Source of the DNA: Malacoraja senta
Taxonomy: Eukaryota
Length of the DNA stretch: 64,000 nucleotides
Assembly: GCA_038087875.1 (NCBI GenBank)
Contig: CM075987.1
Location: 26,104,001 to 26,168,000 of the forward strand
Reading direction: 5' to 3'
Shown: in pieces, positions 1,540 to 50,620 of the stretch
Position numbering within the stretch: the stretch's first letter is position 1
Layout: each line of letters begins with the position of its first letter
Made by a program: the position numbers and the translations under genes
The notes under the pieces: model-generated
The model's database searches: none
What the model saw: the letters and a program-made list of their open reading frames with translations, nothing else
Told to the model about the DNA's origin: nothing

Positions 1540-1960
1540 GGTTTGAATGCGAAGTGGTAGGATATTGTCAGAGTGAGGCTAAATGCAAATTGGAGGAACA
1601 GCATCTCATATTTCGCTTGGGCAGCTTACAACCCAGTGGTGTGAGTATTGATTTCTCTCACTTCAAGTAACCCTTGCATTCCCTCTCTCTCTCTCCCTCC
1701 CCCACCCAAGACGCGCCAGCTTCTTGTTCTCACCCAGCAAACAGATAACAGTGGCCTGTTTCCTTTATCATCATTACCTTTTTGCATATCTTTCATTCAT
1801 TTATTCTATATATCTCTCTCTCTCCATCACCGTCTATATCTCTCGTTTCCCTCTCCCCTGACTCTCTGTCTGAAGAAAGGTCTCGACCCGAAACGTCACC
1901 CAATCCTTCTCTCCAGGAGATGCTGCCTGTCCCGCTGAGTTACTCCAGCATTTTGTGTCT
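1540..1960 (+). mobile_element. Penelope-like element 3' fragment (end of GIY-YIG domain plus tail)
   Basis: Encodes KCKLEEQHLIFRLGSLQPSG, matching the GIY-YIG C-terminus of the element at 16.2 kb; followed by the ctgaagaa..cccgaaacgtc tail. Confidence 0.85.
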
Positions 1961-2430
1961 CTGTTGGGATATTATCTTCTGAGTTGTAACGTCCCTGTGA
2001 AAACCGGAGAATGAATCAGATGGCAAGCAAATCACCAGCAACGCAGAATGTGACACTGCGTGTTAAGGCCAGCAAGATTGCCACTTTAGAACCAATAGAT
2101 TAATGAATCTTGCTCCGTGGATAAACAAATTGGTAACACGTTCGTCTATCCATCAATGATGGATTTTTTTGTTGTTCTGCAGATCAGTTTGATTGAAATT
2201 TTCAGTCTCAAAGCATAACTCATGTTGCTTGATGCACTTGCATTAATCCTGTAATCTATAAGATCTGACAAGCTGAGAGACTTCAGAAGGCCTTCCCTGT
2301 TATGCAACCCAATGGCCACATTAGGTCATTAATGTTTCCCATTCTGGTTCGCATTGTAATTCATTAAAGAGTGTTGGTGGAAGTTCATTAAATACGCACC
2401 CATCAAACTGCAAAAGTAAAGAAAATATTT
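1870..2430 (+). repeat. Dispersed duplication, copy A (partner 49376-49936)
   Basis: Near-identical (about 97% by eye) to 49376-49936, including ~470 bp of otherwise unique sequence. Confidence 0.95.
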
Positions 2431-2454
2431 GTCCTAACGGTCAGACAGAACGGG

Positions 2455-11156: not shown

Positions 11157-11398
11157 CTTGAGCTGCCATATATTAAATGCATGACACGAGATATCGACAG
11201 GCTGCAGGACTCTCCTTGCAAGTCCTTACCTGTCTTTTGAATGACATGGACTGAAAAACTGCTGAAAACCAGTTTGATATTTACACCCCTGGGTAATGAG
11301 ACCAAAATTGCATGCAGTCCTCAGGTTAGCTTATACTTCCTATGGTTTGGTTGAGGGCACTTTTCCAATCTCATTGTTGGTGTTTCCTGCACCCTAAT

Positions 11399-11730
11399 AG
11401 CCCTGTCCCACGGTACGAGTTCATTCCAAGAGCTCTCTCTCCCGAGTTTGCCCTGATTCGAACTCGGAGATTTACGGTAATGGCCGCTCGTCGGTACTCG
11501 GGGCTCTCGTGGACATTTCTCAACATGTTGAAAAATCTTCACGAGTCTTCCCGTGCTTACCTGCCGTTAGCGAGTCTTCCCGAGTACCTGCCGTTAGCGT
11601 TACGAGCCGCTAAGAGGCGTCTCCATGCTCCGACGTACCCGCTACGTTCATTCTCCGTGCTTACCACGAGTTTGATTTTTTTTTAAACTCGGGAGAGCTC
11701 TTGGAATGAACTCGTACCATGGGACAGGGC
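11399..11730. mobile_element. PIF/Harbinger-like MITE
   Basis: Long TIR gccctgtcccacggtacgagttcattccaagagctctc..; nearly identical to 21158-21487. Confidence 0.85.
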
Positions 11731-16083: not shown

Positions 16084-16199
16084 ACTGATAGGGGGTGGGG
16101 AGAAGAAAGGAAAAAAGGAAAAGGAGGAGGAGGAGCCCGAGGGCTGGGGGATGGGAGGAGGCAACCAGATGGCTGATGAAGGGGAGGGGACAGCCAGGG

Positions 16200-16540
16200 C
16201 TAGCAGAATTGGGAGAATTCAACGTTCAGGCCACCAGGATGTAGACTGCCCAAGCGGAATATGAGGTGCATTTCCTCCAATTTACGGTGTTGCTCGCTGT
16301 GGCCATGGAGGAGACCCAGGACAGAGAGGTCAGATACGGAATGGGAGGGGGAGTTGAAGTGTTGAGCCACCGGGAGTTCAGGTTGGTTATTGCGGACCGA
16401 CCGGAGGTGTTCGGCGAAACGATCGCCAAGCCTCCGCTTGGTCTCACCGATGTAGATCAGCTGGCATCTAGAGCAGCGAATGCAATAGATGAGGTTGGAG
16501 GAGATGCAGGTGAACCTCTGTCGCACCTGGAACGACTGCT
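16200..16540 (-). pseudogene. GIY-YIG endonuclease domain of the PLE ORF
   Basis: C-terminal part of ORF 16200-16733: LIY...YIGET, with C-C-H-H residues. Confidence 0.88.
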
Positions 16541-18885
16541 TGGGTCCTGGAATGGAGTGGAGGGGGGAGTGAAGGGACAAGTGTTGCATCTCTTGCGGTT
16601 GCAAGGGAAAGTACCAGGGGAGGGGGTGGTATGGAGGGAAGGGAAGAATTGACAAGGGAGTTACGGAGGGAGCGGTCTTTGCGGAAGGCAGACATGGGGG
16701 GAGATGGGAAGATGTGGCGAGTGGTGGGGTCACGTTGGAGGTGGCGAAACTGACGGAGGATCACTTGTTGTATGTGACGGCTGGTGGGGTGAAAGGTGAG
16801 GACTAGGGGACTGTGCCTTTGTTGTGAGTGGGGGGGGATGGATGGGGAGAGAGAGCAGTGTTGCGGGGTATGGCAGAGACCCTGGTGCGAGCCTCATCTA
16901 TGGTGGAGGAGGGGAACCCCCGTTCCTGAAGAATGAGGACATTTCAGATGCCCTGGTGTGGAACGCCTCATCCTGGGAGCAGATGCGGCGTAGACGGAGG
17001 AATTGGGAGTGGGGGATGGAGTCCTTACAGGAAGCAGGGGTGGGAAGAAGTGTAGTCCAGATAGCCATGGGAGTCGGTAGGTTTGTAGTGGATGTCGTAA
17101 GGAGTCTATCACTGCGATGGAGATAGTGAGGTCAAGGAATGGTAGGGAAGTGTCGGAAATGGTCCAGGTGTATTGAGTGCCGGATGGAAGTTGGTGGTGA
17201 AGCGGATGAAGTCAGTCAGTTGTGTGTGGGTGCAGGATGTGCACCAAAACAATCATTCGATGTAGCGGAGGTAGAGGTCGGGGATGGGGCCCTGGTACGC
17301 ATTGAACAGGGATTGTTCTACGTACCCGACAAAGAGGCAGGCGTAGCTGGGGCCCATGCGTGTGCCCATAGCTACGCCTTGTATTTGGAGGAAATGGGAG
17401 GAGTCAAATGAAAAGTTATTAAGTGTAAGTACCAGCTCCGCTAGGCGGAGGAGGGTGTCAGTGGCCGGGTATAGATTGCTTCTACGGTCGAGAAAAATCG
17501 GAGGGCTTTGAGACCATCCTGGTGGGGGATGGAGGTGTACAATGACTGGACGTCCATGGTGAAGATGAGGGGGTGAGGGCCTAGAGAGTGGAATCGCGGA
17601 GATGACGGAGAGTGTCTGAGGTGTCTTGAACATAGGTGGGGAGGATTTAACCAAGGGGGATATGTATGGAGTCGAGGTAGGTGGAGATGAGTTCGGTGGG
17701 CACGAACAGGCAGAGACAATGGGTCTACCGGGACAGTCAGGTTTGTCGATTTTGGGGAGAAGGTAAAAGCGGGCTGTGCGGGGCTGTGGGATCGATGAGG
17801 TTGGAGGCTTGGTCGGGCAGGGCGTGGAGTGGATGAAGTTGGTGATGGTGCTGGAGATGGTGGCCTGGTGCTCGTCAGTGGGGTCATGGTCCAGGGGTAA
17901 GTAGGAAGAGGTTGTCCGAGAGGTTGGCGCGTGGCCTCAGCTTTGTAGAGGTCGACGCGCCAGACTACCACGGCACCTCCCTTGTCGGCGGGTTGATAAC
18001 CCAATCTAGGTTGTTGCGGAGTGAGTCGATGGCAGTGCGTTCAAGGGGGAGAGATTGGAGTGAGACAGGGGAGTGGAGAAGTTGAGGCGGTTGATGTCAC
18101 GGCGGCAGTTTTTAATAAAGAGTTCTAAAGCCGAAGGCTGCGAGGGGGGTTCCATGAGGATGGGGTGCGTTGGAGACGGGAAAAGGGTCATCAGTGGGGA
18201 GCGAGGACTGCTTCCCATGGAAGTGAGCTGTGAGGCGGAGGCGACGGTAGAAGCGTTCCAAGTCATGGAGGGCACGGAACTCATTGAGATGGGGACGGAG
18301 GGGGACAAAGGTAAGACCTCTGCTGAGGACAGACCGTTCGATGTCGGAGAGGGGGGAGGTCGGGGGGGATGGTGAACACCCGGCAGGGATGGGGGTTGGG
18401 GGCGGAGGAAGGCAGGTGGGTGTAATGGGGACGAGGCGATGTGTGGTGGGGGGGTGGTGGGTGGTCAGGGGGTGGGGGGTGAGAGGGCAGTGGTGTGGGT
18501 GTGGAAGAGAAGTGGTCCATAGTTGGAGGAGGGATGGGGAAGAATCAGTGGAACTGCCACTGAGATAACCAGGGCTAGGCAGACTAGCGCTAGATCCAGT
18601 GGAGTCAAACCCAGGAGAGTGGGAGTGAGCAGCGTGGAGGCTTCAGGCCCAGTACAGAGTCCAGTTTGCAGGTAAGGCGACGGCTGCGGGCTGCTGGAGG
18701 GAGGTGCGGTGGCGAGGGTCAGCGGACCCGACGGTCGGGGTCCGTGGGCAGTGTAGTCGGGGTCGGTGGGGCTGGAGGGAGGTGCAGTGGCGAGGGTCGG
18801 CGGAACCCGATGGTCGGGGTAGGTGGGCAGTAGAGTCGGGGTCCACGGGCGATGCGTGGGAGGTCCCGGTAGGCGGATGGTCGGT

Positions 18886-21119: not shown

Positions 21120-21750
21120 GGGCGGCACGGTGGCGCAGCGGTAGAGATGCTGCCTCAAAGCCCTGTCCCACGGTACGAGTTCATTCCAAGAGCTCTCCCG
21201 AGTTTGCCCTGATTCGAACTCGGAGATTTACGGTAATGGCCACTCGTCGGTACCCGGGGCTCTCATGGACATTTTTCAACATGTTGAAAAATCTTCACGA
21301 GTCTTCCCGTGCTTACCTGCCGTTAGCGAGTCTTCCCGAGTACCTGCCGTTAGCGTTACGAGCCGGTAAGAGACGTCCCCGAGCTCCGACGTACCCGCTA
21401 CGTTCATTCTCCGTGCTTACCACCAGTTCGATTTTTTTTAAACTCGGGAGAGCTCTTGGAATGAACTCGTACCGTGGGACAGGGCTTTTACAGCGCAAGA
21501 GACCCGGGTTTGATCCTGACTGCGGGTGCTTGTCTGTACGTTCTCCCCGTGACCTGCGTGGGTTTTCTACGGGAGCACCTGCTCTCCACAGACGTACTGG
21601 TTTGTAGGTTAATAGGCCTCAGTTAAATTGTAAATTGTTCCTAGTGTGTGTGGGATAATGTTAGTGTGCGGGGATCGCTGGTCGGTGTGGACTCGATGGG
21701 CCGAAGGGCCTGATCCCGCTCTGTGTCTCGAAGCTAAACTGAACTAAATA
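21120..21750 (+). mobile_element. tRNA-derived SINE interrupted by a MITE
   Basis: Head 21120-21157 resumes at 21488. Confidence 0.85.
21158..21487. mobile_element. PIF/Harbinger-like MITE
   Basis: TIR aagccctgtcccacggtacgag...ctcgtaccgtgggacagggctt; 3-bp TSD TCA/TTA. Confidence 0.88.
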
Positions 21751-25236: not shown

Positions 25237-26287
25237 CTCTAGAGTCATAGAGTCGCACAGCATGGAAACAGGCCCTTCGGCCCAACTTGCCCACACCGGC
25301 CAACATGTCGCATCTACACTAGTCCCACCTCTAACATAACTTCTAGCGCTATTGCAGACACTGGCCAGCCTTTCTATTAAAACTATTTAAATGCAAAGCA
25401 GGTTGATCAACTTCCATTAACTTGCCTGCTTCTGTTATATATACTGCCGACTTAATAAGATCCTACAGGAATTTAAGTTCAAGAAGGTATGGGTCTGACT
25501 GGAAGGCTAACATTGATGGAAATACAACTGTGCTGAGGTCTGATCCAAAGCAGCAACTCCTGGGTTTAATTCAGTGTAAGAGTGACTCTCTGTGAGTTAA
25601 TCTCTCCTGAGAACCAAGCTAGATATTTTAAATAAGTACCGTACATTTCAATGGTGTTTTACACAGGGTTTGTATTCAACAGCAGAAGCCCAGGGATCCT
25701 GAAACTCTGGTGGGAGCAAGGAATGGAAATGAAGTACAAGTGCCGGAGTAACTCTGAGTCTGAAGAAGGGTCTCAACCCGAAACGTCACCCAATTCCTTT
25801 TCTCCAGAGATGCTGCCTGAACCCGCTGAGTTACTCCAGCATTTTGTGTCTACCTGTGGAGGGAATGCACAGGCAACATTTTGGGTCAGGACCCTTCTTC
25901 AGACTGATGAGTGAAGAAGGGGTCCCGATACAAAATGCGGCCTGTCCATTCCCCCCACAGATGCTGCCTGACCCACTGAGTTTCTGAGGCACTTTGTATT
26001 TTACTCAGAATTCCAGCACCTGCAATTCCTTCCACTGAATGAAAATTGTTGGACTGTTTTAAAAATTGAGGTCACAACAGCAAATGAATACCCAATGGTT
26101 ATCACTGGGCAAGATTTCATTGGGAGTTTAGCATTTCAATCGTCTACATTCGTTTTTTCTTGAAGAGAGAAGACACAAAAAGCTGGAGTAACTCAGGCGG
26201 GACAGGCAGCATCTCCTGGAGAGAAGGAATGGGTGACGTTTTGGGTTGAGACCCTTCTCAGACTTTTTTTCTCGTTTGGGATAATGT

Positions 26288-33643: not shown

Positions 33644-33842
33644 NNNNNNNNNNNNNNNNNNNNNNNNNNNNNNNNNNNNNNNNNNNNNNNNNNNNNNNNN
33701 NNNNNNNNNNNNNNNNNNNNNNNNNNNNNNNNNNNNNNNNNNNNNNNNNNNNNNNNNNNNNNNNNNNNNNNNNNNNNNNNNNNNNNNNNNNNNNNNNNNN
33801 NNNNNNNNNNNNNNNNNNNNNNNNNNNNNNNNNNNNNNNNNN
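33644..33842. other. Assembly gap (Ns)
   Basis: Run of N. Confidence 1.
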
Positions 33843-33937
33843 NCTGCCTGTCCCGCTGAGTTACTCCAGCATGTTGTGTCTATCTTCAGTGCGAACCGGC
33901 ACCTGCAGTTCCTTCCTACACAAAAGGTTGGAGTTCA

Positions 33938-46894: not shown

Positions 46895-47440
46895 ACTGAG
46901 CAGCTTGCACCCCAGCGGTATGAAAATTGACTTCTCTAAATTCAAGTACCCCTCTCTCTCCATCCCTCCCCCATCCTAGCTCTCTGAGTGGTTTGACTTT
47001 CCTCCGGAGTAAATTTGATCTTTGTACACTTCGTTGTCACCTTCCCCCAGCGAACATTGATCGATTCTATATTTCCCTTGAACTTCGTCCCCTTTGATCT
47101 CTCGTTTTCACACCTTACCCTTCCACATCTCTCGTTTCCCTCTCCCCTGACTCTCAGTCTGAAGAAGGACCTCTCCCATTCCTTCTCTCCAGAGGTGCTG
47201 CCTGTCCCGCTGAGTTACTCCAGCATTTTGTGTCTATCTTCGGTGTAAACCAGCGTCCGCAGTTCCTTGTGCATCGAAGGATTTGCAGACGGTGGTTTAA
47301 ATCGAAGATAGACACAAAATGCTGGAGTCTGAAGAAGGGTCTCCACCCGGAATGTCACCCATTCCTTCTCTCCAGAGATGCTGCCTGTCCCGCTGAGTTA
47401 CTCCAGCATTTTGAGTCTGTCTGCAGTTCCTTCCTACATA
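46895..47440 (+). mobile_element. PLE 3' fragments
   Basis: cagcttgcaccccagcggtatgaaaattgacttctct (end of GIY-YIG domain) plus repeated tails. Confidence 0.8.
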
Positions 47441-48710: not shown

Positions 48711-49375
48711 GGAGAGAGGTAGACACAAAAAGCAGCAGTAACTCAGTGGGACAGGCAGCATCCCTGGAGAGAAAGAATGGGTGATGTTTCGGGTCGAGAC
48801 CCTTCTTCAGACTGGTTGGGGATAAGGGAAACGAGAGATATAGACGGTGATGTGGAGAGATAAAGAACAATGAATGAAAGATATGCAAAAAATAGTATGT
48901 CCTTTTATTCTGAGGCTGTGGCCTCTGGTCCTAGTCTCTCCCTAATGAAGAATCTGTCGATCTCCGCCTTAAAGATTCCCATTGATTTGGCTTCCACAGC
49001 CGTGTGTGGCATTTCTGGTGAGGACCTGTTAAAGTTCCACAACCCAGCATCGTAGGAACCAATTAGCGATGAATTAATGCTCTGGCAATCTATAGCTCGG
49101 AGAAAGGATTTCAACATTTAATAGTAATGACCAGTGAACCAGAGCTGTGGGCAGAGGCAGTTGCTTTTGCTTATAATGAGAGGCTAATGACTAAGACTAC
49201 TTCAGCTCAAAGAATGGATTTGTAGATACAATAATTATAAGTATTGCGTTGTATGACAGCATGTAAATATTTTTTTTTGCAGAGGCCAATTTATATTCTC
49301 TTTCTACTTAATTGCTTTTGGTGGAAGACTGTGATGGGAAAGGAGACACAGGTTTCCGGGGTGGAGGGCAATGAT

Positions 49376-49936
49376 CTGAAGAAGGGTCTCGACCCGAATC
49401 GTCACCCAACCCTTCTCTCCAGGAGATGCTGCCTGTCCCGCTGAGTTACTCCAGCATTTTGTGTTCCTGTTGGGACATTATCTCCTGAGTTGTAACGTCC
49501 CTCTGAAAACCGGAGAATGAATCAGATGGCAAGCAAATCACCAGCAGCGCAGAATGTGACACTGCGTGTTAAGGCCAGCAAGATTGCCACTTTAGAACCA
49601 ATAGATTAATGAATCTTGCTCCGTGGATAAACAAATTGGTAACACGTTCGTCTATCCATCAATGATGGATTTTTTTGTTGTTCTGCAGATCAGTTTGATT
49701 GAAATTTTCAGTCTCAAAGCATAACTCATGTTGCTTGATGCACTTGCATTAATCCTGTAATCTATAAGATCTGACAAGCTGAGAGACTTCACAAGGCCTT
49801 CCCTGTTATGCAACCCAATGGCCACATTAGGTCATTAATGTTCCCCATCCTGGTTCCCATTGTAATTAATTAAAGAGTGTTGGTGGAAGTTCATTAAATA
49901 CGCACCCATCAAACTGCAAAAGTAAAGAAAATATTT
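49376..49936 (+). repeat. Dispersed duplication, copy B (PLE tail plus copied flank)
   Basis: Matches 1870-2430; bracketed by gggc(a/g)atga at 49366-74 and 49944-52. Confidence 0.95.
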
Positions 49937-50620
49937 CAGACTCGGGCGATGACTGTTAATCCTACAAACTAACATGGGTCACAAGTACTTCTGTTTTTTA
50001 ACGTAACAATTTGAAATTCTCCGTCCAGTTTAGTTTAGTTTCAGGCACAAAATGCTGGAAGTAACTCAGCGGGACAGGCAGCATCTCCTGGAGAGAAGGA
50101 ATGGGTGATGTTTCGGGATTGAGACACTTCTTCAAAGTTTAGTTGAGTTTCGAGATACAGCGGGGAAACAGCCCCTTCGGCCCACCTAGTCTGCGAGTCA
50201 CGTCCAAGCAGTGCTGAACTACATCTTTAGTGACTCTCGGACTATCCTTGATCGGACTTTGCTGACTTTACCTTGCACTAAACGTTAATCTCTTATCACT
50301 GTCAATGGCTCGATTGTAATCATGTATTGTCTTTCTGCTTACTGGATAGCAAAAAAGCTTTTCACTGTACCTCTGTACACGTGACAATAAACTGACTGAC
50401 CAGCGATCCCCGCACACAAACACTACCCTCCACACACACGCATGGGACAATTTACAATTATACCGAAGCCAATTAACCTACAAACCTGTACGTCTTTGGA
50501 GTGTGGGAGGAAACCGGAGATACTGGAGAAAACCCACGCAGTTCACGGGGAGAACGTACAAACTCCGTACAGACAGCACCCGTAGACAGAATGGAACGCA
50601 GGACTCTGGCGCTGTAATAA

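What the first reader, a model, noticed from the sequence alone, without database searches (positions are those of the whole stretch)
49366..49952. PLE-tail-initiated copy of ~470 bp of unique DNA from 47 kb upstream
Seen: 49376-49936 duplicates 1870-2430 at about 97% identity. The copy starts exactly at the CTGAAGA hammerhead-like motif and shares private tail variants (ccaggaga, cccaa). It runs ~470 bp into non-repetitive flank, ends in ttcagact (reverse complement of the tail start agtctgaa), and is bracketed by gggc(a/g)atga. The 1.5-2.0 kb copy keeps a longer PLE, so it is the likely donor. Inference: 3' transduction or template-switch copying by PLE machinery, landing locally in cis.
Basis: partly seen in the sequence, partly recalled or inferred. 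Interest (0 to 1): 0.7.

Follow-up and report, generated by a model that had tools for sequence, protein, structure and literature searches.

The report
Old local duplication beside retroelement tail
A 562-base piece of DNA, made of the end of a Penelope-type jumping gene plus ordinary neighbouring sequence, was copied once to a nearby site long ago, more likely by DNA repair than through RNA, and the two copies have since partly overwritten each other.

Summary
The duplication is real: 1869-2430 = 49375-49936, 562 bp, 14 substitutions, no gaps. In public contigs the 470-bp part is low-copy and the right junction is bridged, so it is neither a PLE subfamily body nor an assembly artefact. Direction 1.9 kb to 49.4 kb is supported: the donor PLE's own degenerate 15-bp target duplication has its right copy inside the copied block. 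The copy has a 9-bp target duplication, a 7-bp filler and no poly(A), and starts where 11 of 44 tail pieces in the window start. Corrections: one 'private' variant is shared by 4 tails, the filler has three equally weak sources, and no empty site was listed. A relative about 7% diverged appears to carry both junctions, so the event is old; the 97.5% identity is best explained by later gene conversion and a constrained 178-bp core. Mechanism is not shown. Local landing, filler, no poly(A) and internal RT initiation in the one PLE studied in vitro favour DNA-templated copying (about 0.67), most likely primed by an incoming PLE tail (0.45), over RNA 3' transduction (0.2). Closest known: repair-mediated duplications; PLE capture of host DNA.

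The parts
1555..1569 (+). Left copy of the degenerate 15-bp target duplication of the donor PLE (overlaps the PLE's first bases)
   Evidence: 12 of 15 identical to 1962-1976; reached by 0.075% of 20000 random flanks; boundaries chosen after seeing the data
1563..1960 (+). Donor: 5'-truncated PLE 3' end (last 34 codons of the ORF at 1563-1664, then pLTR and hammerhead-like tail)
   Evidence: tblastn E 4e-8 to the ORF at 16203-16760, which has a Pfam GIY-YIG hit at E 1.7e-4, just below the curated cut-off
1869..2430 (+). Donor block that was copied: 92 bp of tail plus 470 bp of native downstream flank
1962..1976 (+). Right copy of the donor PLE's target duplication; lies inside the copied block and reappears at 49468-49482
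2072..2249 (.). Constrained core, donor copy (counterpart of 49578-49755)
   Evidence: identical to the copy; conservation inferred
2441..2449 (.). 9-bp inverted match to the donor's own 1865-1873; its first letters are one possible source of the copy's filler
33644..33843 (.). 200-N assembly gap between donor and copy; true distance unmeasured
49366..49374 (+). Left copy of the 9-bp target duplication of the inserted block (12 bp if the following CTG is counted, with one extra T)
49375..49466 (+). Copied PLE tail, starting at the family's common 5' end; the GAAA of the hammerhead-like core is changed at 49399
   Evidence: core motif recalled, no Rfam match
49467..49936 (+). Copied 470 bp of low-copy flank; no open frame of note, no poly(A) at its end
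49504..49791 (.). Probable gene-conversion tract: 1 difference in 288 bp against 13 in 274 bp outside
   Evidence: holds the four alleles that both copies share against organisms B, C and D
49578..49755 (.). Constrained 178-bp core with no listed difference in organisms B and C; holds two inverted TGATNNAT sites at 49654-49670
   Evidence: 57 difference rows were hidden
49937..49943 (.). 7-bp filler CAGACTC between copied block and right target duplication; source ambiguous
49944..49952 (+). Right copy of the 9-bp target duplication

Best explanation
A one-off, old, DNA-templated local duplication that began as a PLE tail insertion. Steps: (1, shown by anatomy) a truncated PLE inserted at 1563-1960 into unique DNA. 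(2, inferred) A staggered cut at 49366-49374 received an ordinary short tail whose 5' end lies at the hammerhead edge. (3, inferred) During second-strand synthesis or repair the new tail strand paired with the homologous tail at 1869-1960 on the same chromosome and was extended on that DNA through 470 bp of flank, as in synthesis-dependent strand annealing. (4, inferred) The strand was released at 2430 and joined to the other target end with a 7-bp filler, leaving a 9-bp target duplication. (5, inferred from relatives) The event predates the split from organism D; a central tract was later homogenised by gene conversion. A variant in which the tail at 49375 was already in place and was broken later cannot be told apart and is counted here.
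For: Direction: donor PLE target duplication lies inside the block, 12 of 15; no comparable duplication around a solo tail at 49375-49466 or around the whole unit at the donor. PLE-type left end: 11 of 44 tail pieces start within -5..+2 of the core, the copy at -1; a uniform break in the donor PLE would hit a 7-bp window 1.8% of the time. DNA template: donor lies in cis; no poly(A); filler present; target duplication with filler and microhomology and without poly(A) is a listed class of repair-mediated duplications, 2 of 39 proximal cases, which reach 619 bp (PMC2671141); the donor is a 398-bp fragment. Age and conversion: organism D contigs run 28 letters past each junction, with 30 substitutions in 403 bp of left flank; 9 differences in 470 bp where 23 are expected (p about 0.001); 1 of 288 inside against 13 of 274 outside the tract; both copies share alleles against B, C and D at 49539, 49564, 49577, 49756.
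Against: No step of the mechanism is shown; it is one event. The 9-bp duplication is shorter than the 14-16 bp seen at 5 of 40 PLE units in the window. The filler is not the tail 3' end that a first-strand remnant would leave. About 40 other tails lie in the window, most of them closer to 49.4 kb than the donor. 47.5 kb is far beyond the 5-kb cut-off of PMC2671141 (824 of 1136 within 5 kb, 58 further on the same chromosome). D's contigs pass the junctions by 28 letters, under the tool's 31-letter rule, at depth 3 and 4.7. The clustering of shared against copy-specific sites is not significant alone (p 0.09, or 0.25 if 49848 counts as shared).
Confidence: 0.45

Rival explanations
1. Plain repair-mediated duplication with no PLE enzyme: a staggered double-strand break at 49.37 kb invaded the donor by microhomology, copied 562 bp and was end-joined with filler. 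The start at the hammerhead edge is chance, or follows the small hairpin just upstream of it.
For: Size, filler, target duplication without poly(A) and a cis donor fit PMC2671141. Duplication length differs from the family's 14-16 bp. A 6-bp match GTTTCC lies within one base of register in the donor and acceptor left flanks, and CTG is shared at the junction; both are weak.
Against: The left end falls in the 8-bp window that holds 11 of 44 tail 5' ends, about tenfold above chance, although the finding was picked out for this very feature.
Confidence: 0.22
2. RNA-based 3' transduction by PLE machinery: a read-through RNA from the donor was reverse transcribed from a nick at 49.94 kb, starting 470 nt past the tail and ending at the usual 5' point; or, on an antisense template, starting at the hammerhead edge and running into the flank.
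For: Family-typical 5' end; target duplication; same orientation; ATTAAA at 2387 and AGTAAA at 2415 near the donor end. PLE capture of host DNA with 8-10 bp duplications is reported in a rotifer, and that paper argues for antisense templates (PMC3846280). Weak 3'-end priming is seen in vitro (PMC11167929).
Against: An RNA copy has no known reason to land within about 50 kb of its source (own estimate: of order 1 in 10^4 to 10^5 for a gigabase genome). No poly(A). The dominant in vitro start is internal to the PLE RNA and would skip the flank. In the rotifer cases the captured DNA lies between pLTRs; here there is one tail. None of the other 33 tail 3' flanks compared shares its first 60 bp with another.
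Confidence: 0.2
3. Reverse direction and recent: 49.4 kb is the native site, and the 1.9 kb copy arose only in this lineage, about half-way along its branch, so no gene conversion is needed.
For: D appears to have the 49.4-kb arrangement; both copies share lineage-specific alleles; total substitution counts alone fit.
Against: Needs three coincidences: the 9-bp duplication at 49.4 kb (about 1%), the 15-bp duplication around the donor PLE (0.075%), and an organism C contig that stops at exactly 49936 with 34 unaligned letters. No duplication brackets the unit at 1.9 kb.
Confidence: 0.06
4. The 470 bp is the body of a high-copy PLE subfamily, or the second copy is an assembly artefact.
For: An N gap separates the copies; no long reads were seen.
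Against: Depth over the 470 bp is of the same order as the flanks in 4 of 4 runs (X1 about 51 against 27) while the tail is 10^6-10^7. One X1 contig spans 49504-50045 across the right junction. The copies differ at 14 sites and have unrelated flanks.
Confidence: 0.02

Closest known systems
Repair-mediated duplications by capture of proximal DNA (Pace et al. 2009, PMC2671141; abstract, parts 1-2 of 8 and passages read)
   Same: Two copies only, same chromosome, 562 bp (their proximal maximum is 619 bp), no poly(A), filler, short microhomology; target duplication with filler occurs in their Table 1.
   Different: Distance about 47.5 kb against under 5 kb for their confident set; acceptor is not inside a repeat; the left end coincides with a PLE 5' hot spot; empty site not seen.
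PLE capture and mobilisation of host DNA in Adineta vaga (Arkhipova et al. 2013, PMC3846280; passages and sections 6 and 11 read)
   Same: Host DNA joined to pLTR sequence inside a short target duplication (8-10 bp there, 9 here); includes non-coding cases.
   Different: There the cargo lies between pLTRs and an empty allele was found. Here there is one tail upstream of the cargo, at most an 8-bp inverted remnant downstream, and the donor is local.
Poseidon PLE of Anolis in vitro (Frangieh et al. 2024, PMC11167929; parts 1-2 of 4 read)
   Same: Sharp tail 3' ends with an optional extension and nicking of both strands fit the ordinary tail units of this window.
   Different: Internal initiation would not copy downstream flank; its preferred targets are AT-rich, and the target here is 6 of 9 G+C.
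L1 3' transduction, and L1 cDNA recombination with resident L1 copies
   Same: Element 3' end followed by donor flank inside a target duplication; for the second, a new cDNA pairing with a resident copy and duplicating its flank.
   Different: No poly(A); different element class; transductions are normally dispersed.

Membership tests
Repair-mediated duplication (PMC2671141) | Found at only one other place in the genome | tested here: inconclusive
   One other match in the window; flank-level depth in 4 of 4 runs, but no genome is held and the tool warns that depth is not copy number
Repair-mediated duplication (PMC2671141) | No poly(A/T) tract; filler, microhomology or deletion at the junctions | tested here: met
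   7-bp filler, CTG shared at the left junction, no A or T tract of 5 at the end
Repair-mediated duplication (PMC2671141) | Donor within 5 kb (their working cut-off) | tested here: not met
   Offset 47,506 bp across an N gap; the cut-off is called ad hoc in the paper, so this lowers membership of their confident set, not the mechanism
Repair-mediated duplication (PMC2671141) | Empty orthologous site in an outgroup | tested here: inconclusive
   None listed in 3 relatives; D appears filled, B and C unclear, 61 joints hidden
PLE insertion unit | pLTR or tail of a GIY-YIG PLE | tested here: met
   Donor continuous with an ORF end that matches a GIY-YIG-bearing ORF; copy carries its last 92 bp
PLE insertion unit | 3' junction at the tail end or its 30-40 bp extension | tested here: not met
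   Right junction is 470 bp past the tail end
PLE insertion unit | Family-typical 5' end | tested here: met
   11 of 44 pieces start within -5..+2 of the core; the copy at -1
PLE insertion unit | Target duplication of family length | tested here: inconclusive
   9 bp (12 with microhomology) against 14-16 bp at 5 of 40 units; most units show none; 8-10 bp in PMC3846280
PLE insertion unit | Inverted partner head-to-head at the 5' side | tested here: not met
   7 head-to-head and 2 convergent adjacencies among other units; the copy has no partner, only a possible 8-bp inverted remnant at the far end. The partner is optional in the family
PLE cargo mobilisation (PMC3846280) | Cargo lies between two pLTRs | tested here: not met
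   One tail inside the target duplication
RNA-based 3' transduction | Read-through transcript of the donor and an RNA-derived 3' end | not testable with these tools
   No RNA holder listed, which is no evidence either way; no poly(A) in the copy
Minimal hammerhead ribozyme of PLEs (PMC4209133) | Conserved core and self-cleavage | tested here: inconclusive
   Core motifs recognised by eye from recall; no Rfam match; fold not better than shuffles; the copy's GAAA is changed at 49399; activity not testable
Conserved non-coding element with Pbx-Hox sites (PMC3261376) | Constraint across species and TGATNNAT(KR) motif | tested here: inconclusive
   178 bp without listed difference in B and C (p 0.0003-0.007 for B) but 57 rows hidden and only close relatives; 2 TGATNNAT sites against 0.14 expected, neither with the KR extension

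The most novel reading that the evidence does not exclude
Penelope-type tails act as primers for copying neighbouring DNA: a freshly inserted tail pairs with a resident tail tens of kilobases away (or a read-through RNA is used) and drags in its flank. Here this duplicated a constrained, enhancer-like 178-bp element, and both copies have been kept and homogenised across several species. With a tail about every 1.5 kb in this window, this could be a general engine of small regulatory duplications in such genomes.
Probability: 0.2. Interest if true: 0.6.

Novelty: new member of a known kind. Interest (0 to 1): 0.32.

Why it matters
As it stands this is one old duplication of a known class. It shows that high identity between close paralogs can hide age, and that a PLE-looking end does not prove an RNA route. 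If a genome screen finds many such copies, it would settle whether PLEs move downstream flank by RNA or by pairing with resident copies, which bears on the unresolved late steps of PLE integration, and would give a route for duplicating regulatory elements in tail-rich genomes.

Tried and rejected
Whole-genome search: no genome is held. Rfam: 0 matches at gathering score in the window, 2 chance-level matches in 1800-2500. Folding of both tails, the core and both right ends: no z-score below -1.2; no RNA structure claimed. Coding role: six-frame translation of the 470 bp shows only short open stretches; Pfam on 125 frames (122 of 142 non-repeat frames plus 3 others) found only retroelement domains and weak chance hits, so no host gene was identified. 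No RNA holder listed; no evidence either way. One 24-base core pattern in metagenome contigs: 0 matches. Earlier scan notes by place, by sequence and by the first word set: none. A bacterial promoter and terminator scan is not meaningful for this genome and was used only for the coordinates of the inverted repeat. Circular-intermediate model (filler from donor 1858-1864, 6 of 7): possible, not distinguishable from the other two filler sources. Solo tail at 49375 with its own target duplication: best score 5, within the null. Organism B as an empty site: the last 30 letters of its left contig begin at 49370, the same position of the target duplication as 49948 where its right piece begins, as adjacent contigs over an empty site would; but that contig matches three bases into the tail and nothing extra is laid at 49948-49979. 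Left open. Organism C's uncovered right flank is a blank, not evidence. Literature searches for PLE transduction and for templated insertion or cDNA-primed strand annealing listed no paper describing PLE 3' transduction of downstream flank in a vertebrate; the library lacks most subscription papers, and no supplements were opened.

Full report
1. Observation. Self-BLAST of the window gives 1869-2430 against 49375-49936, 562 bp, 97.5%, no gaps, same strand. There are 14 substitutions, 5 in the 92-bp tail and 9 in the 470-bp remainder, which has no third match in the window. The copy reads: left flank, GGGCAATGA (49366-49374), the block, a 7-bp filler CAGACTC (49937-49943), GGGCGATGA (49944-49952), right flank. 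A direct repeat scoring this well was found in about 1% of 4000 random pairings. Three details need correcting. CCAGGAGA occurs in 4 tails of the window, so only CCCAA is confined to the pair. A 200-N gap at 33644-33843 lies between the copies, so 47.5 kb is an assembly distance. The 'inverted tail start' is one of three readings of the filler: the reverse complement of the common tail start (8 of 8, two letters shared with the donor; this 8-mer occurs 16 times in the window, 13 in tails), donor 2442-2446 after an 11-bp skip, or donor 1858-1864 (6 of 7). None can be preferred.

2. The donor. PLE homology at the donor starts at 1563: its 34 codons match the end of the ORF at 16203-16760 (E 4e-8), which has a GIY-YIG hit just under Pfam's cut-off. 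The element runs to the usual tail end at 1960. Around it lies a degenerate 15-bp duplication, 1555-1569 and 1962-1976, 12 of 15 identical; 0.075% of 20000 random flanks did as well, with boundaries chosen after the fact. Its length matches the 14-16 bp seen at 5 of 40 PLE units in the window, a score that 0 of 294 null pairs reached (two of the five sit in short tandem-like sequence). The right copy of this duplication is inside the copied block and reappears at 49468-49482. The 470 bp is therefore the native flank at 1.9 kb, and 49.4 kb is the acceptor. No comparable duplication brackets a solo tail at 49375-49466 or the whole unit at the donor.

3. The left end. Of 44 tail pieces mapped, 11 begin within -5..+2 of the CTGAAGA core, 14 further upstream and 19 further downstream; the copy begins at -1. 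So the copy's left end is a typical end for this family. An earlier unchecked note on another genome reports the same clustering (e1-7858714); I checked it only in this window. The hammerhead label rests on recalled core motifs and on passages of PMC4209133; Rfam and folding gave nothing.

4. Public contigs. No genome is held. Of 24 runs listed I laid 4, one each of coded organisms A to D, on 49000-50045. All are contigs; 57 difference rows, 61 joints and 600 loose ends were hidden, and counts were incomplete over the tail. (a) Copy number: depth over the 470 bp is of the order of the flanks in 4 of 4 runs (A 51 against 27; B 35 against 22 and 18; C 15 and 12 against 15; D 7-9 against 5 and 4), against 10^6-10^7 over the tail. 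The tool warns that depth is no copy number, but a high-copy subfamily is excluded. (b) Junctions in A: one contig spans 49504-50045 across the right junction, another runs 25 letters into the tail at the left. Run X1 may be the source sample and is not independent. Its long contig carries donor alleles at 6 of 6 sites that differ between the copies in its span, either a collapsed bubble or a more fully converted haplotype. (c) D, with 30 substitutions in 403 bp of left flank, has contigs running 28 letters past the left junction and 28 past the right, through filler and duplication, at depth 4.7 and 3. This is under the tool's 31-letter rule, but the match is specific and the contigs differ from A. 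D also shows two versions of 49609-49704. (d) C has a contig that stops at exactly 49936 with 34 unaligned letters, as the donor arrangement would; its acceptor site is unclear. (e) B is unclear, with one sign for a filled and one for an empty site. No empty-site joint was listed.

5. Age and homogenisation. If the copy is as old as the split from D, about 23 differences are expected in the 470 bp at the 4.8-5.2% seen between organisms; 9 are found (p about 0.001). The differences are clustered: none in 244 bp (p about 0.004); 1 in 288 bp inside 49504-49791 against 13 in 274 bp (4.7%) outside (boundaries post hoc). Both copies share alleles against B, C and D at 49539, 49564, 49577 and 49756, all inside that tract. 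The simplest reading is an old duplication with a later conversion tract. Against: the ordering of shared and copy-specific sites is not significant alone (p 0.09-0.25), site 49848 does not fit neatly, and a recent reverse-direction event fits the substitution counts, though it needs three coincidences. Separately, B and C show no listed difference over 49578-49755 (178 bp; p 0.0003-0.007 for B depending on how hidden rows are counted). This suggests constraint. The core holds two inverted TGATNNAT sites (0.14 expected), the Pbx-Hox motif of PMC3261376 (passages), without the KR extension. This is a lead only; no host gene was found in the window.

6. Mechanism. Shown: two copies, direction, junction anatomy, low copy number. 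Inferred: everything about the route. An RNA route explains the left end and the target duplication, and PLEs can carry host DNA (PMC3846280). It does not explain landing beside the source, the filler or the lack of poly(A), and the Anolis PLE starts reverse transcription inside its RNA with only a weak 3'-end product (PMC11167929). A repair route explains locality, size, filler and duplication (PMC2671141) but leaves the left end to chance. A hybrid explains most: a new tail inserts at a staggered cut, pairs with the homologous donor tail in cis, copies 470 bp of flank on DNA and is end-joined. It does not explain the filler's letters, the short duplication or the choice of a distant tail. 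I give hybrid 0.45, plain repair 0.22, RNA transduction 0.2, reverse direction 0.06, repeat or artefact 0.02. The weighting by distance is my own estimate and depends on the join across the N gap.

7. Comparison and novelty. It works like a repair-mediated duplication and meets their junction criteria but not their 5-kb cut-off. It is not a canonical PLE insertion (3' junction not at the tail) nor the rotifer cargo arrangement (one tail, not two). My searches listed no description of PLE 3' transduction or tail-primed flank capture in a vertebrate, but the library is partial, and the L1 analogues are recalled, not read. No supplements were opened; Figure S1 and Table S1 of PMC2671141 may hold closer parallels. 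One case with an unproven route is a new member of a known kind. Interest 0.32; 0.6 if a genome screen shows tail-primed flank copying to be recurrent and the core to be a functional element.

Noticed in passing
window 49578-49755 and 2072-2249: 178 bp with no listed difference in two relatives about 5-6% diverged; holds a perfect inverted pair of TGATGGAT sites with a 1-bp spacer (49654-49670). Possible regulatory element.
   Followed up: partly
window, 44 tail pieces: 11 of 44 PLE tail pieces start within 8 bp at the upstream edge of the hammerhead-like core, not at the recalled cleavage site about 28 bases downstream.
   Followed up: partly
window 49504-50045, run X1 record 8: One contig joins donor alleles at all six differing sites to the acceptor's right flank: collapsed assembly bubble, or a haplotype with a longer conversion tract.
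   Followed up: no
window 49052, 49224, 49269: All four runs have an extra A behind 49052 and G at 49224, so the window may carry a rare allele or an assembly error there; the T run at 49267-49270 varies.
   Followed up: no
window 1865-1873 and 2441-2449: A perfect 9-bp inverted repeat brackets the donor block and includes a base private to the donor tail; about 1% by chance by my estimate.
   Followed up: partly
window 50043-50134: A minus-strand tail with the same CCAGGAGA variant lies 90 bp right of the insertion, with a 16-bp target duplication in a SINE-like head; convergent with the copied tail.
   Followed up: partly
window 16187-18700: A long, frameshifted PLE of another subfamily on the minus strand with RT-like and GIY-YIG parts.
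   Followed up: partly
window 11393-11730 and 21153-21485: Two 94%-identical 338-bp elements with about 50-bp terminal inverted repeats; look like a miniature DNA transposon family (label recalled).
   Followed up: no
window 25751-26033 and 47119-47428: Three-piece plus-minus-plus PLE tail units, each with one convergent and one head-to-head junction.
   Followed up: no
window 49849-49944, run X4: Organism B has five contigs and raised depth over this stretch, suggesting several versions near the right end of the block.
   Followed up: no
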